Source: a virus. Taken from it: a stretch of DNA of 64,000 bases. The notes beneath the pieces are model-generated. The model saw only the letters and a program-made list of their open reading frames with translations. It ran no database searches and was not told where the DNA came from. A program made the translations under genes and the position numbers. The DNA lies in IMG/VR virus record IMGVR_UViG_3300031413_000569, one strand, 5' to 3'. Below are positions 17,083 to 42,924 of this stretch, piece after piece. Every line of letters begins with the position of its first letter. Position 1 is the stretch's first letter.

Positions 17083-17880
17083 TTATTTTTTGATAGTGTT
17101 TACGACAAAATCAAGCATCTCTTCAGAAGCGTCGATACCCTCTCGGGTGGTTCTGAACACATTCTTTTCAGCTGGCGGAACATCCCCGTGGATAGGGTTT
17201 AAGAAATAGTCCACTTCAGGAATCATAGTGAAATCAAGAAGCGAATCACCTGCTCCGAAAGTCATTGTTGAACCCCAACGAGTGATAAGTTCACGGACTG
17301 CTCGCCCTTTGCTGACAGTAGCAGGAACGAGGTAAGTTTTGCGTCCCTGCTTGGAACGAACAAATCCGGTGAGTTCTGCGATTTCTTTTGTAACTGCATC
17401 CACATAAGGTGAGTCTGAACTCTGAGCAACAACATAGTTGAATAACTGGTCAGCATCTCTTAGAGTTTTCACCTCATCGCAGCCTTCCAGCTTCTCCTGG
17501 AGAAGGTTCAGAACCTCCAGAGGAAGGTAATTGTGGGCGGCTACTCCCGCAGCAACCTCACGGCTCCAGTCCATGTCTTCTTTACCGTCAATGATGATTT
17601 GGGCACCATTGAGAACCACTGCAGCTTTGATATCTACTGCAGGGAAGAAAATTCGTTTGTACTGGTCGAAAGTTCTTGTGGTTGTCGGAACGAAATCAAA
17701 CAAGTTGCCAGCGTTTGTTGCTAACTGCTGCCAGGTTTCCAGTTTGACAAAACTCAGAGGCATATCCTGATATTCTTCCGCCACAAACCGTCCGGCAGAA
17801 GACTGTCCTCTTTTATGAAGCTGGCTCAACGAGTAAATCAGGGTTACATCAAGGTCTGAGAATAAAGCAGGTACACTCAT
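17083..17880 (-). CDS. HAD-superfamily hydrolase (Ter-associated)
   Basis: FSDLDVTL (DxD), PTTTRT, SKGRAV, GAGDSLLD. Confidence 0.88.
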   Translation of the reverse strand: MSVPALFSDLDVTLIYSLSQLHKRGQSSAGRFVAEEYQDMPLSFVKLETWQQLATNAGNLFDFVPTTTRTFDQYKRIFFPAVDIKAAVVLNGAQIIIDGKEDMDWSREVAAGVAAHNYLPLEVLNLLQEKLEGCDEVKTLRDADQLFNYVVAQSSDSPYVDAVTKEIAELTGFVRSKQGRKTYLVPATVSKGRAVRELITRWGSTMTFGAGDSLLDFTMIPEVDYFLNPIHGDVPPAEKNVFRTTREGIDASEEMLDFVVNTIKK

Positions 17881-20357
17881 CAGGCTTTACCTCCATCAAA
17901 GCCAACAGCACCTTTAGTGAAGTTGGGGTGAATCAGACCAATGCAGGCGTAAGGTAAATCAGCTCTTTCTTCTACCTCAACACCACGCTGTTCAGCCAAC
18001 AACAGGATGTGCTTCAAGCCAGCTTTGTCTTCAGGGCGAACAAGAATTCTCCAAGGAACACGACGAAGAAGAACTCGGGTTGTCTCACCAACACCAGGCT
18101 TTACCAAGTTGACGTTGTTAATACCGTATTCATCACTGACTTTAGATACCATCTTCCATCCAGACCAGTCTGGTTCTGCAACTACATGGCTGGAAGCAGC
18201 AACAGCACTTGCATTGAACAGCTCCTCAGTGAATTCAGCAGTGATAGCATCAATGAACTGATTCGACACATCATTGCCAGCGAACTCTTTGTAGAATTTC
18301 GCACCATGGAAGTCATTCTCGCCAATGAAGTCCTCATTGAGTACTGTCCGGGACACTAAACCAGAAACGGTGGAGTTTAGGCAAGCAGAAGGAATGAGAT
18401 AATCCTCACGAGTTCCGTAGATACGCACGCAAGAACCGGGGTCAGCCAAAACTGCCAGCTCAGAATCAAAATGAATACCTGTGCGAGTTTCGAACTCAGC
18501 AAGAGCATCACTGAGTTCTTTTGTGATAGCACCCTTACCTGTCCAACCATCGACAAACAGAACATCTTCTGGGTTGTGGTGAGCAGCAATATACTTCAAA
18601 GCATTGTAATCAATACCTTTACCTCGGACAATGCTCACAGCGTAATGAGGCACCTCATGGCGGTAGGCACTTTCAAGGTACCGCTTCATGAGAACTCCAA
18701 CAGGAGTTCCAGCACGGGCTAAGGAAACAAGAACAGGGTTACCTTTTTTCAAAGTGAAAGCCTGCTCGGAAACAAGACCAATTGCTTCCGCTAAACGCTT
18801 TTTGTTCTCCTGAAGAGACTCAAAGAACAGTTCCTGGTATTCAGCAGTAGGCATGTACTCTACAGGCAAAGACTCAGCATAGTGAGCTCCGCCTGACTGG
18901 ATGGCTTCTTCTCGCTCTTCAGTGGGAGCTTCCAATTCAGCATTGGACAAATCTTTCAACAGCCAAGAAACATCTTCTGCTTTGTAGGAACCAAAACCAG
19001 GTCCATGCAAAGGAGTAGGGAGGCCGTTAGTGTTCAGTTTTGCTTCAAGCAATTCAACAACTTTCGTTCGGGAGGTTAATGCATCGGTCAACTCATGGAT
19101 GCGAGCAGTGCTGGCTTTTCCATCAGTGATGATGATAATACGGTCGAAATCAGTACCAATGTTGTATGCAAAACGAGGGGCAACATCGTCAGCAACGTTG
19201 TACTTCACTCGGTCTTTGATTGCGTAACTTTCATCAGGGTAAGCCACAACAGGTGAGCGTGTTGCTGATGAGAAGTAAATCAAAGATGAATCAGTAACAG
19301 ACTTCTGCAGTTCATGACCGAACAGCAACGAGAAGTACATGTCTTCTTCGATGCCAAGGATGAGAACTTTTTCATTATTGACAGGAGCAGCGACAGAAAT
19401 AAGGGCTTGAGCCTGCTGCCTCATACGCCACAGAGTCATTTCTGAAACACCTAAGCTAAGAGCAGGTGCTGCTTTTTCATACTGGCGAACAAACACCTGT
19501 CCATGACGTGAACCAGAGAAATCTGATTCAGGTAAGGATTTGATTTTCTCAATGATGGGTTCAGCTTTTTCAACTGAATCGACAGGAACATGAAGCTCAG
19601 CTGAGATTAGAGAAACAACATGGACTTTGATACCCATTTCTTTTTCAAACTCGACAAACTTCTCAACAGATTCGTTCGTACGCAAATCAGTCAAAGTCGC
19701 AATGTAGTACTCATTGTGATGGGCGTGACTTTCAAACAAACGGATGGTGTTCATGACAGTGTTACCCGTTGTCAGTTCATCATCAACCAAGACAATTTTA
19801 CGGTTGGGGTTGTTCAGCAATTTCACATCAGCAGGCGTGATGTGGTGTGCTGTTGCATGAGAATGCTCTTCGTCAAATCCACCGTACTCAACAGAACCCG
19901 CGACTGGGTAACGTGTCGAGTGAATGTAGTCAGCTTCCAGGACTTCAGCAACAGAAGCACCCAAACTTGTTGCTGTCTCAGCATAACCAAACACTGTCAA
20001 GTTGTTCACGGAGAAGGAAAGCGTTGTTGGTGAATCAGGGTTCTCTTCAAGCCTTGTGTCACGACCATCCAGAATAGCAAGAAGCTTAGCCCTTGTGATT
20101 CGTCGGGTCACGTCTGCATCATAGCCTCTGTCAGCGTACATGTCGTGACGGTAAATCTGCTCTGCCAGCATGCGTGCTGCTGCCAAAATGACATGAGGAT
20201 GCTGAGGAATGTGCTTACCTAGAACAGTAGACACCAAAAGATGGGCTCGCTTTTTGTTTTTGCGTAGAGCAATGCCAAGAAGTTGCTCGAAACCTGACGC
20301 GTCAGGTGCTTCAATGTCGAGTTCTCGGGAAACAAATTCGCCGTTCCATACTGTCAT
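17880..20357 (-). CDS. Ter-associated fusion: phosphoribosyltransferase + TRSP + StiP-like/PELOTA-like domains
   Basis: RKNKKRAHLLVS.VLGKH, LVDDELTTGNT, SLARAGTP, FVDGWTGKG, DYLIPSACLNSTVSGLVSR, KPGVGETTRVLLRRVP. Confidence 0.88.
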   Translation of the reverse strand: MTVWNGEFVSRELDIEAPDASGFEQLLGIALRKNKKRAHLLVSTVLGKHIPQHPHVILAAARMLAEQIYRHDMYADRGYDADVTRRITRAKLLAILDGRDTRLEENPDSPTTLSFSVNNLTVFGYAETATSLGASVAEVLEADYIHSTRYPVAGSVEYGGFDEEHSHATAHHITPADVKLLNNPNRKIVLVDDELTTGNTVMNTIRLFESHAHHNEYYIATLTDLRTNESVEKFVEFEKEMGIKVHVVSLISAELHVPVDSVEKAEPIIEKIKSLPESDFSGSRHGQVFVRQYEKAAPALSLGVSEMTLWRMRQQAQALISVAAPVNNEKVLILGIEEDMYFSLLFGHELQKSVTDSSLIYFSSATRSPVVAYPDESYAIKDRVKYNVADDVAPRFAYNIGTDFDRIIIITDGKASTARIHELTDALTSRTKVVELLEAKLNTNGLPTPLHGPGFGSYKAEDVSWLLKDLSNAELEAPTEEREEAIQSGGAHYAESLPVEYMPTAEYQELFFESLQENKKRLAEAIGLVSEQAFTLKKGNPVLVSLARAGTPVGVLMKRYLESAYRHEVPHYAVSIVRGKGIDYNALKYIAAHHNPEDVLFVDGWTGKGAITKELSDALAEFETRTGIHFDSELAVLADPGSCVRIYGTREDYLIPSACLNSTVSGLVSRTVLNEDFIGENDFHGAKFYKEFAGNDVSNQFIDAITAEFTEELFNASAVAASSHVVAEPDWSGWKMVSKVSDEYGINNVNLVKPGVGETTRVLLRRVPWRILVRPEDKAGLKHILLLAEQRGVEVEERADLPYACIGLIHPNFTKGAVGFDGGKA

Positions 20358-21521
20358 TTAGAGTTCAAACCTTTCAAGGAAGTCAACAAAATCAATGTCT
20401 GCGTTGCTTACACCGAACATTCTTGCTCTGTTCAATGTTTTGCGAGCCCAAGCAGCATGCGGCTTCACTTCATTCATCTTGTTGCGGTACACGGAAGCGT
20501 AAGCTCCACCTCCACCGTTATCCTCTTTCAGAACATCAGTTGCGTCACTGTACTCTTCATGAGAAACGACCAGCATGGAATGAACCATGCTGATGTGGCT
20601 TGGGTGAATTACTGTCTTACCTGTAATGCCGTTAATCTTGTCCAGCTGGATTTCCTGCAGGAATTTGTCATAACCTTCTGTGAGAAGTTTTGCTCGGAGA
20701 GCTTTATCTTCAGAGAACAGGCTTTCGCGGAGCATAGGCTTGAAAGTTCGTTCAGCTGGGGCAAAGTGTTCCCACACTGCACCTGTAATAACGTATTCGT
20801 CATCAGCTCTACCAAGAACATTCACAATGTCAGCAATCGCAGATGCAACCACATGGACATCATACACAGTGAAGTCTCGTGAGCGTCGCAGACCGTAAGC
20901 AGAAGACATGTCTGTTGCACCGATTCGGACAGCTAACAAGTTGTCCCTGGAGCCGGCTAAGACGTTGGAGATACCTGAAAGAGTTGCTTTACGGGTTTCT
21001 CTATGAATAATAGAAGGGGATTCCAGGACTGGCATGTAGTAAAGGTTAGTGGATTCAATCTTGTTTACTTCCTGAAGTAACCCTACGAACTCTGCAGCTC
21101 TGTCAGTCAGACCATCAAACTTAGGGAACACAAAACCTGTCACAACGCCAAGCAGACCTGTGTTCTGTGAAGCAATTTTGTAGAAATGTTCAGGTGAGCG
21201 AGGGCGAACAAAAACAAGAGGAAGCTCGTCCATGTTGTCCAGTTTGTTTAACTCAGTAAGCAGGACATGCAACTTACCTTCTGCCTCTTCAACTCTTTCG
21301 TCAGGAATGGAGTCTTCCAAGCATACAACAACGCTGGTTGCATCACGTTTACGCATTTTCTGCAAATCTTTGAAAAGCTCAGGACGAGTTGCAGGAATGT
21401 ACAAAGTAGCACCTAAAGACGCACTCAGTAGACTCTTGTCACTGTTCTTGGTGAAAGAAATGGGTTCACGAAAGAATAACTCGGCAGCATCCTGCTGAGA
21501 AAGGAAATCAAAATGACGCAA
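20358..21521 (-). CDS. HpcH/HpaI aldolase / citrate-lyase-beta-like protein (Ter-associated)
   Basis: LGATLYIPA, CLEDS, MPVLES, RIGATD, GKTVIHPSH, NKMNEVKPH. Confidence 0.88.
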   Translation of the reverse strand: MRHFDFLSQQDAAELFFREPISFTKNSDKSLLSASLGATLYIPATRPELFKDLQKMRKRDATSVVVCLEDSIPDERVEEAEGKLHVLLTELNKLDNMDELPLVFVRPRSPEHFYKIASQNTGLLGVVTGFVFPKFDGLTDRAAEFVGLLQEVNKIESTNLYYMPVLESPSIIHRETRKATLSGISNVLAGSRDNLLAVRIGATDMSSAYGLRRSRDFTVYDVHVVASAIADIVNVLGRADDEYVITGAVWEHFAPAERTFKPMLRESLFSEDKALRAKLLTEGYDKFLQEIQLDKINGITGKTVIHPSHISMVHSMLVVSHEEYSDATDVLKEDNGGGGAYASVYRNKMNEVKPHAAWARKTLNRARMFGVSNADIDFVDFLERFEL

Positions 21522-21531
21522 AGTTAGCCTT

Positions 21532-22254
21532 CTATCTATTCTCTGAGAAGAAACTTCTCAAGCTGTTGTTACCCTGCACTGATGTAGTGGAAGGTGTGTA
21601 TGTTCCAATTCGGAACGTTTCGTGGATGTTGCCTCGGAACTTTTCTGCTCTAATCTCCAAGCAGGATTCGACCACCGACATATACATTACCTCATTAACA
21701 AGGTAAGGCAGAGTTACAGATGTTCCGTTGAGTGTTGCTGCTTCAATGTTCTTTCCTTCAAGAGGGACAGCAATGATGCGTTTGATAGTCTTTAGTGACC
21801 GAAGGCCAATTACAAGCATGCCTCTATGGAATTCTACCACAGGTCGGTTCTTGAACGAAGCAGGAACAATTTCAGGCAATGCAGGTCGAGTTTCACCTGT
21901 CTTGTAGTTCACAACATCTGCAGCGTTGCTCGGCATGGCAGTGGAGTACAGGAACCCTGTAGACCCATCCAGAAGCTCCCAGGCGACGTATGAGACGTTT
22001 GCAAGGGCAAGTGACCCGACTGCTGACTGACGACGGTTAAGTCGCACAGCAGGCTTCTGAGCAGTTAGTACAGTGTTCTCAGTAGCAGCAGGAACGGTAG
22101 GGAGTTTCACTTCCACAGGACCAGTCGGAGGGGTGAGGCTAAGAGAGTTCGTAGTCTGTGTCTCCACAGGACCAGTGGGAAGCTTCTCCCCTACCTTCAA
22201 CCGACGACGCAGATAAACAATATCTGGGCGAGGCTTAGTAAGGTTAGCGGTCAT
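21532..22254 (-). CDS. Ter-cluster hypothetical protein (possibly degenerate TerA-like)
   Basis: Coupled between the TerD-like and HpcH genes; VLTAQKPAVRLNRRQSAVGSL segment. Confidence 0.55.
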   Translation of the reverse strand: MTANLTKPRPDIVYLRRRLKVGEKLPTGPVETQTTNSLSLTPPTGPVEVKLPTVPAATENTVLTAQKPAVRLNRRQSAVGSLALANVSYVAWELLDGSTGFLYSTAMPSNAADVVNYKTGETRPALPEIVPASFKNRPVVEFHRGMLVIGLRSLKTIKRIIAVPLEGKNIEAATLNGTSVTLPYLVNEVMYMSVVESCLEIRAEKFRGNIHETFRIGTYTPSTTSVQGNNSLRSFFSENR

Positions 22255-22805
22255 TAGAGAGCCACCTTGTAAGCGTTAGCAACACCAGACAGACCATCCT
22301 TGAATCCCTGACCCAAAGCTCGGAACTTCCACTCATCACGGTGCTTGTAAATTTCACCAAAAATCATGGCATTGATGGAAAGGTCAGCGTTCGGCAGGTC
22401 GAAACGAGCAATCTCGTTGTTCTCTCGGTCAGCAACACGCATGTAAGCGTTCTTGACTGAACCGAAGTTGCCAGGCTTACGGACATCAGGGTCAACGTAA
22501 ACAATGAACACAATTTTCGCAACAGCTTCAGGAACCAAAGAAAGAGAAACCTCAATCTGCTCCGAGTCATCACCTTCGACGTATCGAACAGCATCATCAG
22601 GAGTTGCCAGCTGGTTGAAGAAAACAAAATGGTCATCACTGAGTGCAAGGTTGTTTGCATCCGTGATAATGGCGGAAGGAACCAGGTCAACCTGGGGTCC
22701 GTTGCTCTGGATGGTGTTCCAACCGAAACCAATGACAAGCTCATTCAGCAAGGGGTTACCCTTGGTGAGGCTGATGTTGGCACCTGCCTGGAGAGATGTA
22801 GACAT
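22254..22805 (-). CDS. terD: TerD-family protein
   Basis: GANISL, GFGW, FVFFNQL, DSEQI.V.L, EIYKHRDEWKFRALGQG. Confidence 0.88.
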   Translation of the reverse strand: MSTSLQAGANISLTKGNPLLNELVIGFGWNTIQSNGPQVDLVPSAIITDANNLALSDDHFVFFNQLATPDDAVRYVEGDDSEQIEVSLSLVPEAVAKIVFIVYVDPDVRKPGNFGSVKNAYMRVADRENNEIARFDLPNADLSINAMIFGEIYKHRDEWKFRALGQGFKDGLSGVANAYKVAL

Positions 22806-22890: not shown

Positions 22891-23376
22891 CTATGGCTGG
22901 TTATTGAAGCGGTTCTCGACAAAGATGGTCTGGCTTGCCAGGTTAGACTTCACTCGTTCATGCATTTCAGTGTTCAGTTTACGAACACTACGTTCGATGT
23001 TCTCACACTGGTCGAGGAGCATTACATCAGCTTCTCCGCCAGGAACCTGTTCATGTGAGGGAAGCTGATTGAAGATGTTCAATGCTGAAGGGATGTAATC
23101 AGTGACTGTAGACTTTAGGATGTACTCATCCTCAGGGCGAATGGGGTAGTCCTTGATGAAGCTATTTATATTCACCAGAAGGTCGCTAATAATTCGCAGA
23201 CGGGAGTAAACGGAAGCTGACAGGATGCCGGAGGATTCCCTCTCGTACCAGTTCAGTTCTTCAATCCATTCAGCTAACTGTTCAGGGAAAGGTGCTGGAG
23301 CAAGGGCTGTTGCGGCGGCTGCAGCAACAGGGTTGTTCTGGTTATCACGGCGACCGCCGAAGATGGACCAAACCAT
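22891..23376 (-). CDS. XpaC-like helical-domain protein (soluble)
   Basis: TVTDYIPSALNIFNQLP...LLDQCENIE...LASQTIFVENRF. Confidence 0.7.
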   Translation of the reverse strand: MVWSIFGGRRDNQNNPVAAAAATALAPAPFPEQLAEWIEELNWYERESSGILSASVYSRLRIISDLLVNINSFIKDYPIRPEDEYILKSTVTDYIPSALNIFNQLPSHEQVPGGEADVMLLDQCENIERSVRKLNTEMHERVKSNLASQTIFVENRFNNQP

Positions 23377-23387: not shown

Positions 23388-23930
23388 TTAGTCATCTGTA
23401 TCAACCTGAGGCGGTTGATGCTTAATCTTACTTTCCCAGTAAAAATTCGTTACACCAATTTTGTGTTCATCTGAATATAGCAGAGCTTGGTTGATTTCGT
23501 CAAGTCGGCGGTTCATCAATTCATAGCTACTAATAACAGTGTGGCCGCTATCTGTAGCTTTTCTGCGAATGAAGAACTCATTTGCAGACATCAGGTAGTC
23601 AGTAAGTATTGCTTTGATGTCACTGGCAGCCTGAGCTGGAATCTTGCCGCTGCTGTACCTTTCTCCGATTGATTTGCTGGTGCTAATCAGGGAGAAGAAC
23701 AGCTTTTTGGCAGTTTCTGGAAACTCTTCCTTAGCCAAAGTACCATACGTTTCCAGAAGGTACAGTGTGTGGTTCAGGAGGTTGTCTCCTGTTAAAGCAT
23801 GAACGGAAACTGCTGACAGCGGTTTAGCTGTGTTCCCTTTAGTCACCTTCTTAGAGCGATGGTAGATGACCCAACCTGTTACCAAGATAACGAGGAGAAG
23901 AATAACTAAAGGTAGTACAAGCCTTGCCAC
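23388..23930 (-). CDS. Membrane-anchored degenerate XpaC-like protein
   Basis: N-terminal TM; ILTDYL...LDEINQAL...FYWESK. Confidence 0.6.
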   Translation of the reverse strand: MARLVLPLVILLLVILVTGWVIYHRSKKVTKGNTAKPLSAVSVHALTGDNLLNHTLYLLETYGTLAKEEFPETAKKLFFSLISTSKSIGERYSSGKIPAQAASDIKAILTDYLMSANEFFIRRKATDSGHTVISSYELMNRRLDEINQALLYSDEHKIGVTNFYWESKIKHQPPQVDTDD

Positions 23931-23961: not shown

Positions 23962-25179
23962 TTATCGTCCGATAGCCTGGCGGCTTGTCTCAGATGCTTC
24001 CAATGCACGGGCACGGTCAAGCTGAGGACGGGCACGGTCCAGCTGAGCAGTCAGACCGTCGATGGTCTGAGCCATCGAGTCGTTAGCCTTCTGCTTGAAG
24101 ACATCAATCTCATCCATTGTAGCGAAGATGTTATCGAATGCCTTCTCCAGAGTTGCAACAGCAACACCAGAGTTGACAGCCTGCTCGTGGACACGACCTG
24201 TCTGCTGACGGAGCATGATGGAGGTCTGCTCGATGGTCTTGTTGGTTGCCTCGTTGACAGCATCAATCTGGTCAAGGACCAACTTCTGGGTGTCAAGAGC
24301 CTGAGCAACAACAATGGCTGTCTTCAGAGCGTAGATGGTTGTGGTACGGGCACGGTCAACACCCTTGATGAGTTCGACGTTGTTCTTACGAACAAGCTCC
24401 ATAGCCATGTAACCCTGGACAGAAACAGCAAGCTGTGTCATGAGGTCCTGACGACGCTGACGGATAGCGAACAGCATGTCGCTCTCCATTGTCTGAGAGG
24501 CTTCGATGTTACCAGCCTGCTTCAGACGAGCAACTTCGTTAGTCACTTCCTCGTCAAGCTTCTGAGCGAGGACACTGTACTCATTGAGTACACCCATGTT
24601 GTCCCAAAGTTCCTTCTTCTCCTGCTGGAGAGAAGCGTTGTCCTTCATCAGCTCATCCTGACCAGCAAGAAGAGACTTCACGATGTTGTCAAGCTGAACC
24701 TGAGCGGTCTCGTACTTCTGGAAGTACTTACGAATCTTGTTGCCACCAGGGATGAAGCCAAGAATCTTCTTCACACCTGTAAGGTCAGCAGCGTTGGGAG
24801 TGAGGTCCTCGACGGTGGAACGAAGGGTGGAAAGCGTTCCAGCAACCTTCACTGTAGCGTCACCGCCAGACTTCTTAGCACCACTGAGTGAGGAGGACTT
24901 TCGCTCCAGAAGTCGGCTTGTACCAACACCAGACTTGACAATCTCACTCTGAGCAAGAGTCTGAATGTCTGTCAGCTTCTGAGCGAACTCAGGGGAGTTA
25001 GGGTTGAAACGGGAAAGGTCCTTGACGAAGCTCTTAGCCTGCTGACCAATTTCCAGTTCGCGGTTCTTGTCCACTGACGGAATCATGGAAGGAGCTTTCT
25101 CCTCGGAGACAGTCTCGACAGGTGCAGGGGCACTGAGGACGAGAGCGGTCTCATCCGGGGGAGTAAGCATATCACTCAT
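23962..25179 (-). CDS. telA: Toxic anion resistance protein TelA/KlaA
   Basis: Coiled coil with KYETAQVQLDNI, RRQDL.TQLAV..QG...., KNN.ELIKGVDRA.TTT. Confidence 0.9.
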   Translation of the reverse strand: MSDMLTPPDETALVLSAPAPVETVSEEKAPSMIPSVDKNRELEIGQQAKSFVKDLSRFNPNSPEFAQKLTDIQTLAQSEIVKSGVGTSRLLERKSSSLSGAKKSGGDATVKVAGTLSTLRSTVEDLTPNAADLTGVKKILGFIPGGNKIRKYFQKYETAQVQLDNIVKSLLAGQDELMKDNASLQQEKKELWDNMGVLNEYSVLAQKLDEEVTNEVARLKQAGNIEASQTMESDMLFAIRQRRQDLMTQLAVSVQGYMAMELVRKNNVELIKGVDRARTTTIYALKTAIVVAQALDTQKLVLDQIDAVNEATNKTIEQTSIMLRQQTGRVHEQAVNSGVAVATLEKAFDNIFATMDEIDVFKQKANDSMAQTIDGLTAQLDRARPQLDRARALEASETSRQAIGR

Positions 25180-25869: not shown

Positions 25870-25926
25870 AGTGGTATTTTCTTCTTTCTAAGTTTGCTGA
25901 TTTGTTTACTGAATTTTGATTATAGC

Positions 25927-29156: not shown

Positions 29157-29157
29157 G

Positions 29158-32506: not shown

Positions 32507-32507
32507 A

Positions 32508-35068: not shown

Positions 35069-35113
35069 ATCCTACCCGAGAAGTAAAAACCTCTTCAAAA
35101 TGCGTACTTAAAC

Positions 35114-35149
35114 AAAAGGAGGGAAGGATGTTTAGCCTTCCCTCCTTTT
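35114..35149. terminator. Intrinsic terminator
   Basis: aaaaggagggaagg-8nt-ccttccctcctttt. Confidence 0.85.
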
Positions 35150-35150
35150 A

Positions 35151-35651: not shown

Positions 35652-35711
35652 TTACAACCTCCAAGGTTTACATTCTTAGTGTACAGCATATGAACACAAA
35701 CTACAATTGTC

Positions 35712-36737
35712 TTACTTGTTAGACACTGAATCTGTCAAAGGTAAACTTACTTGCTGAGAAACACCAATAACAGGCTTCGTAGATTCGATCATCAAACCAG
35801 ACCCAGGCTTCAAACCACGAGAGCTAACCCATTCAGATTGGACCTTCAACTCTTTTCTTACTGAGTCTAACGCAACATCAATAACAGTCTGCACTTCAGA
35901 GTTCAAGTTCGACAAAGTAACCACAACCTCATCCACATCTAAAGACCCACCCAGACGCTGTAGTTGTTTCATGTTACGAACCAAACCTGCATAATCCTGC
36001 TGCACCCGTGAAATAATATGCTGCTCCTCTGCAGCTAATTCATTCAAAGATACAATCGCCATCTTCTTCACCAAAGCTTCTGACAAAATAACAGCTTCTC
36101 CCACAAAAACATCTGGTTCGGAAGCAACATCGATGTTAGCTATCTCAGTGGTAGAAGAGTGTGCAAGGTCCAAGCCAAGAACTCGGCCCAGATTTTTATC
36201 AGCAGAAGAGTGTGCGAACTCCAAGCCAAGAACCAAACCCAGATTCTCATCAGTTATATCAACCTTCAACACCAGGTCAGTACCATCTTTAGATTCCAAT
36301 ACCAAATGTACAGCATGCTGAGCAGAGATACTGTCGATACTATCCCACACTACCTTCTCCTGCTCTGATGACAGTTGTAAACTATAACGGGCAGCCAGCC
36401 AAGTTTTCAAAGCTTCAAAGTTCAACGAATTTGCTGCATGGAGTTTATCATCAAAACGAGCTCGCCTAACTCCAACAGCAGCCGCAAGGCTTACCGCTAT
36501 CGCAGTCGAGCTACCGATGATAATTTGAGCGGGTCCGTCCAAGCCAAGAAAAGCTGCAGTAATACCACCTACAGGAAAAGTAAGACCGCCAGAAAATAGT
36601 GGGAAAAAAGTGGCACCTGAACCCATGAAACTTGACCAAAAAGAAGTCTTCACCGGATTCACCACAGGATGAAAAGCTTCTAAAGCTGACGGAGCAGGAA
36701 CCAGCACTTTGTTCTTCAGTACAACAGTTTTACTCAT
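35712..36737 (-). CDS. Two-TM protein with XpaC-like C-domain and a 17-aa internal duplication
   Basis: LKTWLAARYSL; EEQHIISRVQQD; VQSEWVSSR. Confidence 0.8.
   Translation of the reverse strand: MSKTVVLKNKVLVPAPSALEAFHPVVNPVKTSFWSSFMGSGATFFPLFSGGLTFPVGGITAAFLGLDGPAQIIIGSSTAIAVSLAAAVGVRRARFDDKLHAANSLNFEALKTWLAARYSLQLSSEQEKVVWDSIDSISAQHAVHLVLESKDGTDLVLKVDITDENLGLVLGLEFAHSSADKNLGRVLGLDLAHSSTTEIANIDVASEPDVFVGEAVILSEALVKKMAIVSLNELAAEEQHIISRVQQDYAGLVRNMKQLQRLGGSLDVDEVVVTLSNLNSEVQTVIDVALDSVRKELKVQSEWVSSRGLKPGSGLMIESTKPVIGVSQQVSLPLTDSVSNK
36153..36248. repeat. Imperfect 51-bp tandem duplication
   Basis: agaagagtgtgc..ccaagccaagaac...cccagatt starting at 36153 and 36204. Confidence 0.8.
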
Positions 36738-36742
36738 GCAAA

Positions 36743-37846
36743 TTACCTAACCCTATTCTTCTCATATTCCGTGCCATCCACAGATACTGGTGCAACCTCA
36801 TCAACAATAACAGATGCTGGCAAAACCAAAGCAGAATCACTCACCAACTGGCGTGATTTCAGATAAGCATTCTGCGACCTAAAATCATTCGCTAACACAT
36901 CAGTTTCCTGCTGTAATAAGATACTCAATTCGTTGTTCAGAAGAGTTAGATTCTCTGCCAACAACGTAGCTGCAACCTCAACTTCACCAGCAGAAGAAAG
37001 CTTGCTAAACAAATTCAAACCCTGACGCAAATCTTGCTGAGAACGCAGCAATGCATGCTGAGACTCAGTAGATAACGACAAATCTTCCAACACGCGTTGC
37101 TTTGCTTTGAAGCTCTCCAACAGCACAACACATTCATTAGGTAACAGGTCGGTATCAACCAATAATTTAGCCTCAGCCAACTCCTGAGTCGCAACATTTT
37201 GAACCAATGCAGCAGGAGTCACTGTCGCTTCTTTCTCCGTTGCTGATTTGACTTCCTCAACAAACCAACCAGCTTTGACTGTATCGTAAGCAAAGTTCCA
37301 GAGTCTACCCACGTTGTTAGTGTCAACAAACTGAACAGGAGTCTCCCAGTAAAGATGGACAACCATATTACGCAAATCATCCTCAGGCACAGAAGACAGA
37401 CTGTAACGGCTCCTAAGCCACTCTTTCAGAAACTCAGTATTGTATTGATGGTTCTCTTCAACCAAAAACTTGGCTGTATCTGCTTTTTCACGCGTCACAT
37501 ATTTGAAAACTCTAAAAGAAGCGTAACCCAGTAAAGTGAAACCAGTCGCACAAGCTCCGAAAGCTGCAGTCGCTATACCAGGTCCTACTGTATCCAAGAT
37601 TTGAGAGCTAGGAAAAATTGAGACAAAAGCTCCACCTACAGAAGGAAGAATAAAGAATCGACCCTTACCACGGTCGTCTCTACCTTCGAAGCTTAACTCC
37701 ATCCTCGCTTTTGAATCCAATAAAGGAGTGAACAATTCAGAACCTGACTGCATCTTTGGCGCCCAAGTTTCAACCATAGCCTGGAAAGCATCAACATCAT
37801 AGCCGACGATCTTATCATTCTTCATCACCATAATATCAGATGACAT
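36743..37846 (-). CDS. Two-TM protein with XpaC-like C-domain
   Basis: LKEWLRSRYSL; WNFAYD...GWFVEE; ESQHALLRSQQDLRQ; SQNAYLKSR. Confidence 0.85.
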   Translation of the reverse strand: MSSDIMVMKNDKIVGYDVDAFQAMVETWAPKMQSGSELFTPLLDSKARMELSFEGRDDRGKGRFFILPSVGGAFVSIFPSSQILDTVGPGIATAAFGACATGFTLLGYASFRVFKYVTREKADTAKFLVEENHQYNTEFLKEWLRSRYSLSSVPEDDLRNMVVHLYWETPVQFVDTNNVGRLWNFAYDTVKAGWFVEEVKSATEKEATVTPAALVQNVATQELAEAKLLVDTDLLPNECVVLLESFKAKQRVLEDLSLSTESQHALLRSQQDLRQGLNLFSKLSSAGEVEVAATLLAENLTLLNNELSILLQQETDVLANDFRSQNAYLKSRQLVSDSALVLPASVIVDEVAPVSVDGTEYEKNRVR

Positions 37847-38921
37847 TCTGACCCTCCTTCATGTCGACAGTTTTAGTTTCCAACATCAACGCAGAAGAAG
37901 TAACACCCTCAACAAGTTGGCGTGAACGCAAATAGTCTTTCTGTACACGGAACTCATCATTCAGTCCAGCAGCAACAGCAGACACCATACCCCGAGCTTC
38001 CTCATTCAACACAGTCAACACTTCAGCCAAATGCTGCTCACCTTCCACAATGCTCTCCGCATCATCCAACTCAACCAGCTTCACATAAGTTGAAACAGCC
38101 TGACGAACATCCTCACCACGCCGCAAGAAAGCATGCTGGGACTCAGTAGGCAAATTCAGCTTAGCCAACTTGGCCTGCCAGTTCATGAAACTCTCCATCA
38201 ACAAAGCACACTCACCAGGCAAAGAAACTGTTTCAGACCTTGCTGCAGGTAAAGCTACAGAAGCTTCCTTAGCTTCAACAGTTTTAGCCTCTTCAACAAA
38301 CCAAGAGTTGTTTCCGCCGTAGCTGAACTTCCACAGACGGTCTGGATGTCCATCATCGGAGAACTCCACATCCTTAGAATCCTGACCTTTGTTCACAGCA
38401 CGAACACTATCCAACATCTTCGACACATAACGTGTTGACACAGTGGACAAACCATACCTGGAACTCAGCCACATCTGCAACGCATAATGCTCAAACTTAT
38501 CGAGCTTGCGAAGCAGACCACTGTACGTATCCTTCTCTTTCTGCCGGCCCCGTCGCACAAGAGTCCATAAAGTCACACCCACCGCAATTCCAGCAGCCAC
38601 ACCTCCACCAGAACCAAACAACAGTAAATTATTCATCACCAACTGGACAGGCTCACCCCCAGTTGTCGCTAAATAAACGATAGGAGTGAAAGCACCAGCC
38701 AAGCCCACCGTAGTCCCTGCAGCAGCACCTAAAGTACCACTTTCGTCATCAGCATATGCCAGCTTATACAGTAGCTCCTGCTCTTCAGAGTTCACCAAAG
38801 AAGAGAACAACTCACCCCCAGAACTCATCCTGTTCGTCCACTCAGTTGTACGAACATCAAGAACATTAGTGTCAATAGACTCTGGGTAATCCTTATGATA
38901 AATCACAATATCAGATGACAT
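37836..38921 (-). CDS. Two-TM protein with XpaC-like C-domain (start placed at MSSDI)
   Basis: LQMWLSSRYGL; WKFSY...SWFVEE; ESQHAFLRRGEDVRQ; VQKDYLRSR. Confidence 0.85.
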   Translation of the reverse strand: MSSDIVIYHKDYPESIDTNVLDVRTTEWTNRMSSGGELFSSLVNSEEQELLYKLAYADDESGTLGAAAGTTVGLAGAFTPIVYLATTGGEPVQLVMNNLLLFGSGGGVAAGIAVGVTLWTLVRRGRQKEKDTYSGLLRKLDKFEHYALQMWLSSRYGLSTVSTRYVSKMLDSVRAVNKGQDSKDVEFSDDGHPDRLWKFSYGGNNSWFVEEAKTVEAKEASVALPAARSETVSLPGECALLMESFMNWQAKLAKLNLPTESQHAFLRRGEDVRQAVSTYVKLVELDDAESIVEGEQHLAEVLTVLNEEARGMVSAVAAGLNDEFRVQKDYLRSRQLVEGVTSSALMLETKTVDMKEGQNVI

Positions 38922-40002
38922 TATTACCAACCACATCCTTCTTCTGAACCTCTAAAGCATCCAACACTAAACCAGGCTCCTGACCATAACCCAACTGACG
39001 GGACTTCAAATACGCATGCTGAGCTTGGAACTCATTGTCCAAAGACTCAAACTCCTGCTCCAGCAACACGTTCAGCTCCTCAATCAACAAACTCAAAGAC
39101 TCACCCAACCTCACCGCAGCAATATCAGATTTACCCACAGCAACCATCTTCGAGTACAAACTTAAAGCCTGACGCAAATCCTCCTGCGAACGACGAATAA
39201 CATGCTGAGCTTCAGTAGACAAAGACAACTCAGATAACGACAACTGACGAGACTGGAAACTCTCCAAAAGGACAGCACACTCACCAGGAAGCTTCTCAGC
39301 CTCAACCAGCTGCTCATCCTTCACACCCTTAGAAGCAACAAGGGAAACAGCAGAAGTCTTACCTGCAGTCAAAGCCAACCCAGCTTCCTTTTGAGCAACT
39401 GATTTCAGTTCCTCAACAAACCAGCCGTCTTTAATGGAATCATAAGCAAAATTCCACAACCTCTCCCCACTGTTTGCACTAAGGAATCGAGTCGACTCAC
39501 CACGATACATATTAGTTACCATTTTAGACAGAGTGTAATCCGTAACAGAAGACAAACCATACCTGGTGTCAAGCCAACGCTTCAAACCCTGTTTGTCGTG
39601 CTTGAAAGCTTCATTTAGAACAAACTCACTCTTAGTTTTTTCTTCACGAGTAACCTTACGAAAAATCTTGAAAGAACCAAAACCAGTCACCAAAGACGCT
39701 ACAACATTTGCTCCAAGAAAAGCAAAACTAAAAGCCATTGTTTCAGGTGAGGCAACAGCAAGCATCGGAACAGCTGAACCTGTAAAAATAACAAAACCTG
39801 GTAATAATCCGTATTTAGTCATTCCATAATCAGATTCATTTCTTTTCTTAGCAACAACCCGAGCTTGACCTGGTAACACTGGAACAAACAACTCAGAACC
39901 GGACTCCACAACAGCCTGCCAAGAATCCGCATGCTGTGCAAAAGTGTCAACACTGACACCCACAGGCTTATCCTTCTTATACACCACAATATCAGTAGAC
40001 AT
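38911..40002 (-). CDS. Two-TM protein with XpaC-like C-domain
   Basis: LKRWLDTRYGL; WNFAYD...GWFVEE; EAQHVIRRSQEDLRQ; AQHAYLKSR. Confidence 0.85.
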   Translation of the reverse strand: MSTDIVVYKKDKPVGVSVDTFAQHADSWQAVVESGSELFVPVLPGQARVVAKKRNESDYGMTKYGLLPGFVIFTGSAVPMLAVASPETMAFSFAFLGANVVASLVTGFGSFKIFRKVTREEKTKSEFVLNEAFKHDKQGLKRWLDTRYGLSSVTDYTLSKMVTNMYRGESTRFLSANSGERLWNFAYDSIKDGWFVEELKSVAQKEAGLALTAGKTSAVSLVASKGVKDEQLVEAEKLPGECAVLLESFQSRQLSLSELSLSTEAQHVIRRSQEDLRQALSLYSKMVAVGKSDIAAVRLGESLSLLIEELNVLLEQEFESLDNEFQAQHAYLKSRQLGYGQEPGLVLDALEVQKKDVVGNNVI

Positions 40003-41060
40003 TACTCAACCACATCCTTCTTCGAAACATCAACAGCAGAAACACCAGGAGCCAGAACCAATGCATCTGCAGAAGTCCTCGACCGCAAATACTCACGCTG
40101 AACCCTGAAATCATTCGCCAACACAGAAGACTTAGCAGTTACCAACATCCGAGCCTCATCATTCAACAAACCCAGAACCTCAGACAAAGCCCTACCAGCC
40201 TCAACAACACCATCAGGGTCACCAAGCTTCATCAACTTCTGATACGTGAACAGAGCCTGCTGAGCATCCTGCTGCATGCGAGAAACCTGATGAGAAACCT
40301 GATGAGAAACCTCAACATCAGAACCAACAGTCTTCAACCGGCTCAACCGACCCAGCAAAGAAACCAACAAAGCGTCAACACTCTCAGGCAAAGCAACCTC
40401 AGGGTCAGAAACAACCTCAGGAAGCTCCAGAACGCTCTCTGCTGCCCTCTCACCCGCAACAACAGCTTCCCGCTGCTCCACAAGATAATAAGCCTGCTCA
40501 GTGGCTCCAGCCTCACTTTCAGAAGACTTCAACTGATAAGGTCGACCAGATTCAGCAACAAAAATTTCAGACGGAACTTCATTCACAATGATAGCTTCAG
40601 CCATCAAACGAACATCCTCATCAGAAAAAGACTCACCATAAACATCTTCCAGCCAAACCTCAACCAAGCTGACAGTAACAGTAACCATCTTGCTAACAAC
40701 AACAGCGTTCCTGGAAAATCGGGTCCTATGCCACAAACCCAGAGGTACTGCAGTCACAACAGCAGTACCCAGAAAAGCCAAGAAACTAACCATGGGACTC
40801 CCGCTGTCACCAAGCAAAGCTATTGGAAGTATGCCAAGAAAACCAGGACCAAAGCACAAAGGTGCAGTCAATTCAGCAGCAGTGTTGTCCCGCACACGAG
40901 TCGCCCACGCAGAATCAAAAATAGAAACAAACTTACCAGCAAATCTTGCCCCATCAGACACAGAAGAACGAGGAGCTAAAAACACATCCTCCTTCACAGC
41001 CTTCAACTGAGAACCAAAACTAAGACTCTCAACATCCGTTTTTACAAGATCACTACCCAT
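40002..41060 (-). CDS. Two-TM protein with XpaC-like C-domain (start placed at MGSDL, RBS aggggt)
   Basis: VEVWLEDVYG; RMQQDAQQALFTY; VQREYLRSR; the longer ORF call to 41126 runs into a terminator. Confidence 0.8.
   Translation of the reverse strand: MGSDLVKTDVESLSFGSQLKAVKEDVFLAPRSSVSDGARFAGKFVSIFDSAWATRVRDNTAAELTAPLCFGPGFLGILPIALLGDSGSPMVSFLAFLGTAVVTAVPLGLWHRTRFSRNAVVVSKMVTVTVSLVEVWLEDVYGESFSDEDVRLMAEAIIVNEVPSEIFVAESGRPYQLKSSESEAGATEQAYYLVEQREAVVAGERAAESVLELPEVVSDPEVALPESVDALLVSLLGRLSRLKTVGSDVEVSHQVSHQVSRMQQDAQQALFTYQKLMKLGDPDGVVEAGRALSEVLGLLNDEARMLVTAKSSVLANDFRVQREYLRSRTSADALVLAPGVSAVDVSKKDVVE
40280..40312. repeat. 12-bp tandem repeat, 2.75 copies (VSHQ VSHQ VS)
   Basis: gagaaacctgat gagaaacctgat gagaaacct. 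Confidence 0.9.
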
Positions 41061-41191: not shown

Positions 41192-41635
41192 CTATTCGCT
41201 TTCTCGTCCATTAGAAGAATCAGTTATCCTCAGAAGAACATAACCATTATATGATTCATCCCAAATCTGGATACTGACAACCCCAACAAAACATCTAGTC
41301 TGCGTTTCACTTAGTGTCTCACACTGATCGGGGGTCAATGCTTTTGCCCTCTCAGTAAGAATGCTAAATGCTTCATCCCCTTCTATTCCAGCCTGGAAAA
41401 ACGACGGAGAAAACACTCCATCCCCATGGTCGTACCGTGCAGTAAGAACTTCACCAGCTTCTGAATAACCCAAATTATCCCGTACATCATTAACACGACT
41501 GTAACGCTGTTCATCCGGCAAAGGCGTAAATTGCTCGACTGCATTAGACCACCCGCAACCACTCAGGGTAAAAGCCCCTACCAGCCCCAAAGTGACCATT
41601 ACAAATGTTTTCTTATGTCCGACTGAACTACTCAC
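41192..41635 (-). CDS. Lipoprotein
   Basis: Signal peptide with LSGC lipobox. Confidence 0.75.
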   Translation of the reverse strand: MSSSVGHKKTFVMVTLGLVGAFTLSGCGWSNAVEQFTPLPDEQRYSRVNDVRDNLGYSEAGEVLTARYDHGDGVFSPSFFQAGIEGDEAFSILTERAKALTPDQCETLSETQTRCFVGVVSIQIWDESYNGYVLLRITDSSNGRESE

Positions 41636-41713: not shown

Positions 41714-41770
41714 CACACAACACAAAAGAAAGGGGAGGATGTCAGTTCCGAAGAACCAACACCCTCCCCT
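41714..41770. terminator. Terminator-containing direct repeat, copy 2
   Basis: cacacaacacaaaagaa-aggggaggatgtcagttccgaagaaccaacaccctcccct. Confidence 0.8.
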
Positions 41771-41787
41771 TCAAGAGAAGCTAAAGA

Positions 41788-42924
41788 CTACTCACCAGCG
41801 TTAGCAGAAGTTGTAGCAGGCACCTCATCATGCGCACCCACAGTCTCAACCTCACCACCAGCAGCCTTCACACGCTTGTTACGCACCACCGAAGAAACCA
41901 GAGCCGCGATAATCAGCACAATACCAATCAAACCAGTCACAATCTCAGGAATCGGAATCGCAATCGACACAATCAACAGACCAGCCAACGCACCAATCGC
42001 CCAGTGAGCACCATGGTCCAAGTACACATACTCATTCAGAGTACCCTTACGGACCAAGAAGATGGTAATGCTACGAACAAACATAGCACCAATCAAACCA
42101 AGACCCAGAGCGATGATAATCGGGTCAGTCGTGATAGCCAAAGCACCAATCACACCATCGAACGAGAACGAAGCATCAATGACCTCAAGGTACAAGAAGC
42201 TGAAGAACGCAGCCTTACCAACAAGCTTAGTAACACCAGCAACACGAGTACGCTCCTCATCCTCCTCCAAACGGTTCTCAAAGTACGAACCCAAAGCGTT
42301 CACAAGAAGGTAAGTAATCATACCAGCAACACCAGAAGTCATCACAGTCACAGCATGGTCGCCAGCCTCAGCAGCAATCACAAGCAAAGCACCAGCAGCC
42401 ACAATCACAGCAGCATAGTCAACCTTGCCAATCTTCGACAAAGGAGCCTCCAACCAACGCAGCCACTTAATGTCACGGTCCTCAAAAATGAAGTCCAAGA
42501 ACAGCATCAGCAAGAAGATACCACCAAAAGCAGCAATCTGAGGATGAGCATCATGCAGAATGTGAGCATAAGTACCAGGCTCATCAATGCTACCACCAGC
42601 AAGAGCAAGGTTCCACGCCTCAACAGGGTTCAAACCAGTAGTCGCACCCACAATCACAAGAGGGAACGCGATACGCATACCGAAGACTGCGATAATGATG
42701 CCCACTGTGAGGAACATCTTTTGCCAAAAATCAGACATCTTTTCGAGGATTCGGGCGTTGACAACAGCGTTATCAAAACTTAAACTCACTTCGAACGCAC
42801 CGAGCAACAGTACGAGCAAAAGAGCCTCCCAGCTACCATAAAGGTAGCCGGCGATGAGTGCCACAATCGACACGATGATGGACCCGGCGAAAATACGCAG
42901 CGGGTGGTGGGCGTTTGAAGCCAT
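41788..42924 (-). CDS. terC: TerC-family (DUF475-type) integral membrane protein
   Basis: EVSLSFDNAVVNA, AVFGMRIAFP, YLEVIDASFSFDGVIGA, YLDHGAHWAIG. Confidence 0.92.
   Translation of the reverse strand: MASNAHHPLRIFAGSIIVSIVALIAGYLYGSWEALLLVLLLGAFEVSLSFDNAVVNARILEKMSDFWQKMFLTVGIIIAVFGMRIAFPLVIVGATTGLNPVEAWNLALAGGSIDEPGTYAHILHDAHPQIAAFGGIFLLMLFLDFIFEDRDIKWLRWLEAPLSKIGKVDYAAVIVAAGALLVIAAEAGDHAVTVMTSGVAGMITYLLVNALGSYFENRLEEDEERTRVAGVTKLVGKAAFFSFLYLEVIDASFSFDGVIGALAITTDPIIIALGLGLIGAMFVRSITIFLVRKGTLNEYVYLDHGAHWAIGALAGLLIVSIAIPIPEIVTGLIGIVLIIAALVSSVVRNKRVKAAGGEVETVGAHDEVPATTSANAGE

What the first reader, a model, noticed from the sequence alone, without database searches (positions are those of the whole stretch)
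17083..42924. 26-kb Ter/TelA super-locus with a large expansion of XpaC-like partner proteins (top candidate for an undescribed system)
Seen: every credible gene from terC down to the HAD gene is on the minus strand. Around one telA and four dispersed terD/terZ genes lie at least 13 ORFs (22891, 23388, 27076, 28239, 29158, 30107, 31850, 33172, 35712, 36743, 37836, 38911, 40002). They all end in a related helical domain: E.(Q/E)(H/Y)....  then (TDYLP or R..D)..L..Y..L ... L..L...... Q..YL..(R/K). Their N-termini differ (none, one TM, two TM, duplicated domain). Known: TelA homologues pair with a single XpaC-type protein (B. subtilis xpaC-yaaN, envelope-stress regulon), and Ter loci confer phage, colicin and tellurite resistance by unclear means. 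Inference: one TelA scaffold served by a diversified repertoire of membrane sensor/adaptor subunits, i.e. a modular envelope-surveillance or superinfection-exclusion system.
Basis: partly seen in the sequence, partly recalled or inferred. Interest (0 to 1): 0.9.

Follow-up and report, generated by a model that had tools for sequence, protein, structure and literature searches.

The report
Expanded TelA-partner gene array
A stress-resistance (Ter/TelA) gene cluster on a giant uncultured leaf-surface replicon holds at least 13 diversified copies of a protein that ordinary bacteria keep as a single gene beside telA. This gives a natural handle on what the long-mysterious TelA protein responds to.

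Summary
From terC (41788-42924) to the HAD-like gene (17083-17880), 29 co-directional minus-strand genes form a Ter cluster: TerC/DUF475, four TerD, one TelA, a C-C lyase and a PRTase-TRSP-StiP-PELOTA fusion.

Iterative HMM searches show that 12 of the 13 named ORFs share one C-terminal domain of about 100 aa. 23388 is only borderline. A 14th copy lies outside the locus at 57993-59099.

The domain has no Pfam, NCBIfam or PADLOC model. In 78 of 79 telA loci of named Micrococcales and Bacillus genomes it occurs exactly once, just downstream of telA. In 401 sampled Actinomycetota genomes it never exceeds one copy. So it is a TelA-partner domain, and arrays are not routine.

Profile-profile comparison links it to XpaC at 88% probability for one subclass. 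Other subclasses are weaker and controls stay under 1%.

Related low-GC metagenome contigs carry similar arrays, up to 13 copies in 21 kb. A tree shows an old expansion plus local tandem bursts.

Binding to TelA is inferred, not shown; the one complex prediction gave no verdict. This scan has noted smaller expansions of the same domain on other DNA (three and seven copies). I rate it a new variant of the XpaC-TelA pair, of moderate to high interest.

The parts
41788..42924 (-). TerC-family membrane protein (DUF475 type). A strong terminator-like hairpin follows at 41772-41729.
   Evidence: Pfam PF04332 at E 2e-121 and PF03741; terminator scan.
41192..41635 (-). 147-aa lipoprotein-like protein, conserved beside the arrays of related contigs.
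   Evidence: phmmer hits in L114 (4e-32) and L004 (1e-27); one N-terminal hydrophobic segment.
40002..41060 (-). Long-class paralogue: TM hairpin, WLxxRY alpha/beta domain, TelA-partner domain. The database gene call is 352 aa.
38911..40002 (-). Long-class paralogue (363 aa), modelled by AF2. The partner domain is a three-helix bundle at residues 240-339.
   Evidence: model with pLDDT 82.
37836..38936 (-). Long-class paralogue (366 aa), part of the recent tandem burst.
36743..37846 (-). Long-class paralogue (367 aa), 43% identical to 38911.
35712..36737 (-). Long-class paralogue (341 aa).
34274..35651 (-). Two ORFs (264 and 166 aa) of unknown family inside the array. Neither is a family member.
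   Evidence: No Pfam or NCBIfam hit and no profile hit.
33172..34209 (-). Long-class paralogue (345 aa).
32508..33071 (-). 187-aa single-TM protein immediately upstream of 31850. Family unknown.
31850..32506 (-). XpaC-like architecture (218 aa): N-terminal TM helix plus a TelA-partner domain with the YLP-type motif and an LxL tail.
   Evidence: (hhalign to XpaC 88%).
31147..31725 (-). TerD.
   Evidence: Pfam PF02342 at 1e-79.
30107..31075 (-). Long-class paralogue (322 aa).
29158..30060 (-). Soluble 300-aa member. The C-terminal partner domain is clear; a possible degenerate second copy in the N-terminal half is not significant.
28239..29156 (-). Divergent long-class member (305 aa).
   Evidence: Round-1 E 4e-7.
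27657..28211 (-). 184-aa single-TM protein overlapping the start of 27076. Family unknown.
27076..27660 (-). 194-aa member with one N-terminal TM.
25282..26511 (-). Two TerD genes (25282-25869 and 25927-26511).
   Evidence: Pfam.
23962..25179 (-). TelA, the only copy in the window. It is 55-64% identical to Micrococcales TelA.
   Evidence: Pfam PF05816 at 3e-75.
23388..23930 (-). 180-aa single-TM protein directly downstream of telA. A doubtful, degenerate family member.
   Evidence: E 0.4 and i-E 3.3.
22891..23376 (-). 161-aa soluble member, the counterpart of the single telA-downstream partner of Micrococcales.
   Evidence: BLAST at 1e-11 to 5e-23 against those proteins.
17083..22805 (-). TerD (22254), unknown 240-aa ORF (21532), C-C lyase (20358), PRTase_2-TRSP-StiP-PELOTA (17880) and a HAD-like gene (17083).
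   Evidence: Pfam.
56005..59099 (+). Distal module: an exported SBP_bac_11-vWA protein (56005-57915), then a 368-aa protein (57993-59099) with a signal or anchor segment, an outside domain, a TM helix and a cytoplasmic TelA-partner domain.
   Evidence: the same pairing occurs in L119 and L120.

Best explanation
This is a complete Ter/TelA membrane-stress gene cluster. Its single TelA-partner gene has been multiplied into an array of at least 12 diversified paralogues, with one more elsewhere on the replicon.

Shown:
- All members end in one homologous domain of about 100 aa, predicted to be an antiparallel three-helix bundle followed by a short conserved LxL tail.
- In ordinary genomes this domain is encoded once, right after telA.
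- It is probably the same domain as the cytoplasmic part of XpaC, the membrane partner of TelA in Bacillota.
- Different N-terminal modules are attached to it here: none; one TM helix; a TM hairpin plus a small alpha/beta domain; or an exported domain plus a TM helix, encoded next to a secreted SBP-vWA protein.

Inferred:
- The C-terminal domain docks onto cytoplasmic TelA at the membrane.
- Each N-terminal module places or gates that contact in response to a different membrane or envelope cue. Many inputs would then converge on one TelA and on the TerC/TerD machinery encoded around it. This is comparable in logic to the membrane anchors that recruit PspA or LiaH.
- Published genetics in E. 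faecium fit a regulator-effector relation: loss of xpaC matters only when telA is intact.
For: - Homology of the 12+1 C-domains: iterative HMM search; hhalign of the long class against the ~200-aa class gives 97.7%, E 1.6e-12.
- Tie to TelA: exactly one member lies just downstream of telA in 78 of 79 loci of named Micrococcales and B. cereus-group genomes. In Bacillus it is the C-terminus of a DUF3974 protein (hhalign 96.8%).
- XpaC link: hhalign 88%, E 3e-6 over 81 co-linear columns, with matching YLPxxL..Y..L and HLPxxv.L..kY..L motifs. Reversed, shuffled and TelA controls give E >= 0.14.
- Real genes: dN/dS is 0.08-0.32 against a variant contig, and the C-domain is the best conserved part (31% against about 21% pairwise identity).
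- Fold: the AF2 models have pLDDT 82 and 80, with a C-terminal helical bundle.
- LxL tail: present in 78 of 144 family representatives, against a mean of 24 and a maximum of 35 in shuffles.
- Rarity of arrays: never more than one copy in 401 sampled Actinomycetota genomes. Arrays recur only on related low-GC contigs.
- Sensor-like pairing with SBP-vWA proteins recurs in L119 and L120.
- The xpaC phenotype depends on telA (PMC6811118). xpaC-yaaN appears in a paper on the sigma-W regulon (PMC3498285, listed, text not read).
Against: - No direct evidence of binding. The one complex prediction (TelA + 22891) gave no verdict (score 0.15).
- XpaC homology is strong for only one subclass. It is 48%, 28% and 15% for other subsets, and not significant for the Micrococcales partners alone.
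- No PF10112 hit, and XpaC did not appear in the Foldseek Swiss-Prot lists.
- The fold is a generic helical bundle (Z <= 10.6, below what is telling for helical proteins).
- Most array members lie 3-16 kb from telA, so their tie to TelA rests on domain homology and operon-like packing.
- The nature of the replicon is unknown, which leaves the biological purpose open.
Confidence: 0.6

Rival explanations
1. The paralogues are autonomous membrane proteins that share a helical oligomerisation domain. They assemble with each other into homo- or hetero-oligomeric membrane scaffolds or channels. Their link to TelA is co-regulation in one stress regulon, not physical contact.
For: The domain is a generic three-helix bundle with coiled-coil-like matches. 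Most members are kilobases from telA. The complex prediction gave no verdict. Overlapping starts and stops suggest stoichiometric co-production.
Against: The one-to-one, immediately adjacent telA pairing in 78 of 79 loci across two phyla is hard to explain by co-regulation alone. Soluble members (22891, 29158) have no membrane part to assemble.
Confidence: 0.2
2. The replicon is an invading mobile element or giant virus of leaf-surface Actinomycetota. The array would be a set of partner mimics that capture, retarget or silence the host cell's own TelA/Ter response (counter-defence), or that exclude competing elements.
For: The Ter genes are most similar to those of Micrococcales, yet sit in DNA about 20-30 GC points lower. 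The window is rich in ORFans and carries its own DnaE, RecG and helicase-nuclease genes. The paralogues are fast-diverging and interleave between elements. Habitat is phyllosphere, plant and straw metagenomes.
Against: The element carries a full Ter set of its own, including telA, so its partners have a cognate target on the same DNA. There was no match in IMG/VR, the phage collection or the plasmid collection. A relative lies on an 880-kb contig, larger than any phage I know of (my own knowledge, not checked here). No host link was established.
Confidence: 0.12
3. The resemblance to XpaC is convergent: similar amphipathic helices next to a membrane. On this reading the family is a separate, unnamed TelA-neighbour family with no common origin with XpaC.
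For: No PF10112 hit at E <= 10. HMM-to-sequence scores are marginal. hhalign is weak for most subsets. Foldseek did not return XpaC. The partner gene lies downstream of telA here; in B. subtilis xpaC lies upstream of yaaN (my own knowledge, not checked here).
Against: hhalign 88% with co-linear motif matches, and controls below 1%. The two share an architecture (N-terminal TM plus cytoplasmic helical domain) and the same genomic partner.
Confidence: 0.25

Closest known systems
XpaC-TelA (YaaN) gene pair of Bacillota (B. subtilis xpaC-yaaN, Listeria lmo1966-lmo1967, E. faecium xpaC-telA)
   Same: A small protein with N-terminal TM helices and a cytoplasmic helical domain, encoded next to telA. 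Profile-profile similarity over the cytoplasmic domain is 88% for the ~200-aa class. The setting is envelope stress (PMC12791056, PMC6811118).
   Different: No match to Pfam PF10112. The gene lies downstream of telA, not upstream. There are 13-14 copies instead of one. Architectures unknown for XpaC occur here: soluble forms, a TM hairpin plus alpha/beta domain, and an exported domain. The array is embedded in a full TerC/TerD/biosynthetic cluster.
Single telA-downstream partner of Micrococcales and the DUF3974 protein of the B. cereus group (not in Pfam, NCBIfam or PADLOC)
   Same: The same domain by HMM and hhalign, including the YLP motif and LxL tail. 22891 is its positional counterpart.
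   Different: Those genomes hold one soluble copy. Here the domain is multiplied and fused to membrane and sensor-like modules.
Ter stress-response clusters (TerC, TerD, TelA with a PRTase, C-C lyase, HAD and StiP metabolite module), as surveyed by Anantharaman, Iyer and Aravind 2012 (cited from memory; paper not held)
   Same: All these Pfam families are present in one co-directional cluster.
   Different: 12-13 partner-domain genes are interleaved. No TerB or ATP-grasp gene was recognised among the ORFs scanned.
PspA-PspB/C and LiaH-LiaI membrane-anchor/effector pairs
   Same: The proposed logic is the same: a small membrane protein recruits or restrains a soluble helical stress protein at the membrane.
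   Different: No sequence or fold relation was shown. This is an analogy only.
Smaller expansions of the same domain noted earlier in this scan (Kineococcus, three copies; a Gracilibacteria-type genome, seven copies)
   Same: Tandem TelA-partner-domain membrane genes next to a telA-like gene (AI notes e1-2755720 and e1-3858606, not re-tested here).
   Different: This is the largest array so far. It has four architectures, sits inside a full Ter cluster, and recurs on several giant low-GC contigs.

Membership tests
XpaC / Halogen_Hydrol (Pfam PF10112) | Match to the PF10112 profile above its gathering score | tested here: not met
   No PF10112 hit for any full-length ORF at E <= 0.01, nor for the 13 C-domains at E <= 10.
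XpaC / Halogen_Hydrol (Pfam PF10112) | Remote homology of the cytoplasmic helical domain by profile-profile comparison | tested here: inconclusive
   hhalign against 17 XpaC sequences gives 88% (E 3e-6) for the ~200-aa class, 48% for the small class, 28% for the YLP-type domain set, 15% for all C-domains, and no significance for the Micrococcales partners alone. Controls give 0.1-0.8%.
XpaC / Halogen_Hydrol (Pfam PF10112) | N-terminal TM helices followed by a cytoplasmic helical domain | tested here: met
   Hydropathy and AF2 agree for 27076, 31850 and the eight long-class proteins. Not met for the soluble 22891 and 29158.
XpaC / Halogen_Hydrol (Pfam PF10112) | Encoded next to telA | tested here: met
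   23388 and 22891 follow telA with gaps of 31 and 11 nt. The others lie in the same co-directional cluster.
TelA-downstream partner domain (uncurated family) | Significant match to the family profile | tested here: met
   12 locus ORFs plus 57993 match. 572 representative clusters match in 1.84 billion proteins. 23388 is not significant.
TelA-downstream partner domain (uncurated family) | Single copy immediately downstream of telA | tested here: not met
   This is the norm in 78 of 79 named loci and in 401 sampled genomes. Here there are 13-14 copies spread over 18 kb.
Ter stress-response cluster | TerC, TerD and TelA together with the PRTase, C-C lyase, HAD and StiP module | tested here: met
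   Pfam. The HAD match is just under the cut-off. TerB and ATP-grasp were not found among the ORFs scanned.
Known anti-phage defence systems (PADLOC-DB) | Match of any array protein or TelA to a PADLOC model | tested here: not met
   No hit at E <= 0.01 for ten proteins.
TelA-binding adaptor (functional class) | Physical contact between the C-domain and TelA | tested here: inconclusive
   The one complex prediction scored 0.15 against a mark of 0.32. That is no verdict either way. An experiment is needed.

The most novel reading that the evidence does not exclude
A giant mobile replicon of leaf-surface Actinomycetota runs a many-to-one surveillance system. More than a dozen diversified membrane and extracytoplasmic sensor modules each use the same three-helix domain and LxL tail to switch a single TelA effector. 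The array would act as a repertoire that recognises different envelope insults, such as phage or bacteriocin attack, or competing elements, and triggers the Ter response. That would reveal TelA's long-sought mode of activation.
Probability: 0.25. Interest if true: 0.85.

Novelty: new variant of a known kind. Interest (0 to 1): 0.6.

Why it matters
By my own knowledge, TelA and the Ter genes have been linked to tellurite, phage, colicin and cell-wall antibiotic resistance for decades without a mechanism.

This locus shows that TelA's neighbour is a portable docking-type domain. It can be soluble, membrane-anchored, or coupled to outside-facing modules, and one lineage has multiplied it more than tenfold. 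That points to a partner-controlled effector.

It also supplies a ready panel of natural variants, a conserved motif (YLPxxL..Y..L) and a conserved LxL tail for binding and mutagenesis tests.

Finally, it documents a group of unplaced giant low-GC replicons (at least 318 kb, with a relative on an 880-kb contig). The one in this window was found in plant-surface metagenomes, and the group as a whole invests heavily in this system.

Tried and rejected
- Pfam, NCBIfam and PADLOC scans of the array proteins and C-domains gave nothing relevant. A PDB sequence profile search gave nothing.
- Foldseek (PDB, Swiss-Prot AFDB), VIA-align wide and Atlas searches with two confident models returned only generic helical bundles. 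XpaC was not listed. ESM Atlas look-alikes gave unnamed actinobacterial clusters.
- Complex prediction of TelA + 22891 gave no verdict. It is not evidence either way.
- The window DNA has no match in the phage or plasmid collections. 38911 has no relative in IMG/VR.
- No whole genome is held for the window, and the metagenome contigs could not be searched for rRNA. The nature of the replicon stays open. A Saccharibacteria-type small genome and a giant plasmid or virus were both considered; neither could be tested.
- The 1-TM proteins 27657 and 32508 were tested as a second family that pairs with members. No significant similarity to each other or to the partner domain was found.
- TelA itself as a relative of the domain was rejected (hhalign 0.1%).
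- The Anantharaman 2012 paper could not be read.

Full report
**What is in the sequence**

Between 42924 and 17083 there are 29 open reading frames, all on the minus strand. Gaps between them run from -26 to +152 nt. Pfam identifies:
- a TerC-family protein of the DUF475 type (41788-42924);
- four TerD proteins (22254, 25282, 25927, 31147);
- one TelA (23962-25179);
- a C-C bond lyase (20358);
- a PRTase_2-TRSP-StiP-PELOTA fusion (17880);
- a HAD-like protein just under the Pfam cut-off (17083).

phmmer finds no second telA in the window. A 20-bp-stem terminator-like hairpin follows terC at 41772-41729. No comparably strong one lies inside the array.

**Is the shared domain real?**

BLAST links seven proteins of 322-374 aa along their full length, and separately links 22891, 29158, 31850 and 27076. 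I built a profile from the last ~115 residues of the seven and searched all 295 six-frame ORFs of the window.
- Round 1 found 28239 (4e-7), 27076 (6e-5), 31850 (3e-4), 29158 (1e-2) and 22891 (7e-2).
- By round 3 all of these scored 1e-23 or better, while unrelated ORFs stayed at E 0.06 or worse.
- 23388 has the TDYL motif in the right place but never reaches significance (E 0.4; i-E 3.3 with a subfamily profile).
- Profile-profile comparison of the long class with the ~200-aa class gives 97.7%, E 1.6e-12.

**Architectures**

Hydropathy and two AF2 models (pLDDT 82 and 80) give four classes:
- soluble: 22891 and 29158;
- one N-terminal TM helix: 27076 and 31850;
- a TM hairpin running into a long helix with an invariant W and Y (WLxxRY), then a small alpha/beta domain, a variable linker and the C-domain: eight proteins from 28239 to 40002;
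- in 57993, an N-terminal hydrophobic segment, an outside domain of about 140 aa, a TM helix and the C-domain.

The C-domain is modelled as an antiparallel three-helix bundle. It is followed by a short LxL tail. That tail occurs in 78 of 144 family representatives, against a mean of 24 and a maximum of 35 in shuffled tails.

Among the seven long paralogues that BLAST links full-length (28239 not included), the C-domain is the best conserved part: 31% mean pairwise identity against about 21% for the rest. Against a variant contig (L118), four genes give dN/dS of 0.08-0.32. The fastest change is in the N-terminal and TM part of 38911. These are real, constrained genes.

**What the domain is**

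No Pfam, NCBIfam or PADLOC model matches it, and no PDB sequence does. A profile search of 1.84 billion representative proteins finds 572 clusters at E <= 1e-3 and 73 at E <= 1e-10. Of the top 150, 70 share the whole long-class architecture.

The decisive result comes from genome context. I fetched 79 telA loci from named genomes: 75 Micrococcales or other Actinomycetota, and 4 from the B. cereus group. My profile finds exactly one member in 78 of them, always starting a few tens of bases after telA.
- In Micrococcales it is a soluble protein of roughly 170 aa (open frames 170-195 codons) with the same YLP motif and LxL tail. 22891 matches these proteins at 1e-11 to 5e-23.
- In Bacillus it is the C-terminal part of a DUF3974 protein (hhalign 96.8%).
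- On a Curtobacterium megaplasmid one gene intervenes between telA and the partner.

The domain is therefore a conserved TelA partner. In 401 sampled Actinomycetota genomes, 6 have a match and none has more than one. TelA itself passes its cut-off in 23 of them. Arrays are not routine.

**Is it XpaC-like?**

I collected 17 XpaC (PF10112) proteins from Bacilli. The hhalign results were:

| Query set | Probability | E-value |
|---|---|---|
| ~200-aa TM class (31850, 27076 and 25 representatives) | 88% | 3e-6 |
| Small soluble class | 48% | 1.8e-4 |
| YLP-type domain set | 28% | 6e-4 |
| All C-domains | 15% | 1.8e-3 |
| Micrococcales partners alone | 0.6% | 0.096 (not significant) |
| Controls: reversed or column-shuffled XpaC, and TelA | 0.1-0.8% | >= 0.067 |

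The 88% match covers 81 co-linear columns. The family motif YLPxxL..Y..L aligns with XpaC's HL(P/D)xxv.L..kY..L.

Foldseek did not list XpaC among Swiss-Prot models, and the fold matches are generic helical bundles. I put remote homology with XpaC at about 0.7. Formal membership of PF10112 is not met.

**Where it comes from**

The window is part of a 318-kb JGI metagenome contig. A second sample holds the same array. More distant relatives also carry arrays:
- an 880-kb contig, with 13 members in 21 kb;
- an 85-kb contig, with 4 members, again after DUF4379 and terC genes;
- a 4.6-kb contig, with 4 consecutive members.

All have GC of 0.43-0.47, whereas the Micrococcales loci with the most similar TelA have 0.61-0.74. 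DnaE is about 44-46% identical to actinobacterial and actinophage DnaE.

The DNA is found in phyllosphere, plant and straw metagenomes from 17 studies. It has no match in the phage, plasmid or IMG/VR collections. I could not decide whether it is a chromosome, a plasmid or a virus.

A maximum-likelihood tree of 29 long-class proteins shows paralogues of different contigs interleaved: the window's eight need 5-6 label changes, no fewer than shuffled labels. There are also local bursts, namely 36743/38911/37836 here and a five-gene clade on the 880-kb contig. The expansion is old, and it continues.

**How it most likely works**

Shown: one homologous domain; its strict one-to-one pairing with telA elsewhere; its fusion here to four kinds of N-terminal module; purifying selection.

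Also shown: the pairing of a partner-domain membrane protein with an exported SBP-vWA protein. This occurs in the window (56005 and 57993) and on two unrelated contigs.

Inferred: the domain and its tail contact TelA at the cytoplasmic face of the membrane. The N-terminal modules decide where or when that happens, so that many inputs feed one TelA and the surrounding TerC/TerD system. The E. faecium observation that deleting xpaC matters only when telA is present (PMC6811118) fits a regulator-effector pair.

**Rivals**
- Autonomous membrane assemblies that are merely co-regulated with TelA.
- Partner mimics used by a mobile element against a host's Ter system.
- Convergence rather than homology with XpaC.

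**Novelty and score**

The XpaC-TelA pair and Ter clusters are known. New here are three things: the recognition that the uncurated telA-downstream protein of Actinomycetota and Bacillus carries the same domain; the four architectures; and above all a 13-14-fold expansion that recurs on giant unplaced replicons.

Earlier notes of this scan report the same domain tripled in Kineococcus and sevenfold in a Gracilibacteria-type genome, plus a TelA operon with a vWA lipoprotein. This is therefore the largest and most varied case, not the first sighting.

I class it as a new variant of a known kind, with interest 0.6.

Noticed in passing
window 56005-59758 (+); L119, L120: An exported SBP_bac_11-vWA protein is followed directly by a membrane protein with a cytoplasmic TelA-partner domain. 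The same two-gene pairing, with overlapping stop and start, occurs on two unrelated metagenome contigs. It suggests an outside-ligand to TelA-partner relay.
   Followed up: partly
window 41729-41772 (-): A 20-bp-stem hairpin with a T-rich tail sits right after terC. It probably ends a separate terC transcript, so the array would start its own unit at about 41.7 kb.
   Followed up: no
window 41192-41635 (-); L114 9382-9834; L004 17570-18043: A 147-aa lipoprotein-like protein is conserved (1e-27 to 4e-32) beside the arrays of three divergent contigs. Function unknown.
   Followed up: partly
window 43068-44618 (-); L114 5259-6527: A multi-repeat DUF4379 treble-clef zinc-finger protein sits immediately upstream of terC, both in the window and on a distant relative.
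   Followed up: no
window 27657-28211 and 32508-33071 (-): Two single-TM proteins of about 185 aa each lie directly upstream of (touching or overlapping) a one-TM partner-domain gene (27076, 31850). 23388 stands in the same position before 22891. No sequence similarity among them could be shown.
   Followed up: partly
window 36737-41060 (-): Long-class genes overlap by 1-26 nt, and several products here and on related contigs end in a VVGN-like tail that overlaps the next gene's start. This looks like translational coupling copied along with each duplication.
   Followed up: no
window 44001-48000: A GC dip to 0.35 coincides with a 1266-aa Mrr_cat_2-ResIII-helicase protein with four HA (helicase-associated) domains. 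It is probably a separately acquired restriction or defence gene. GC skew also flips sign around here.
   Followed up: no
L006 (Curtobacterium plasmid D40, 607 kb): A high-GC Curtobacterium megaplasmid carries DUF475, TerD, TelA and the partner, beside NAPRTase, NADAR, Thg1, dNMP kinase and ligase genes. This gene mix resembles parts of the window.
   Followed up: no
L007, L083-L086 (Bacillus cereus group): The Pfam DUF3974 protein encoded just after a telA paralogue carries the TelA-partner domain at its C-terminus. These genomes lack a full PF10112 XpaC match.
   Followed up: partly
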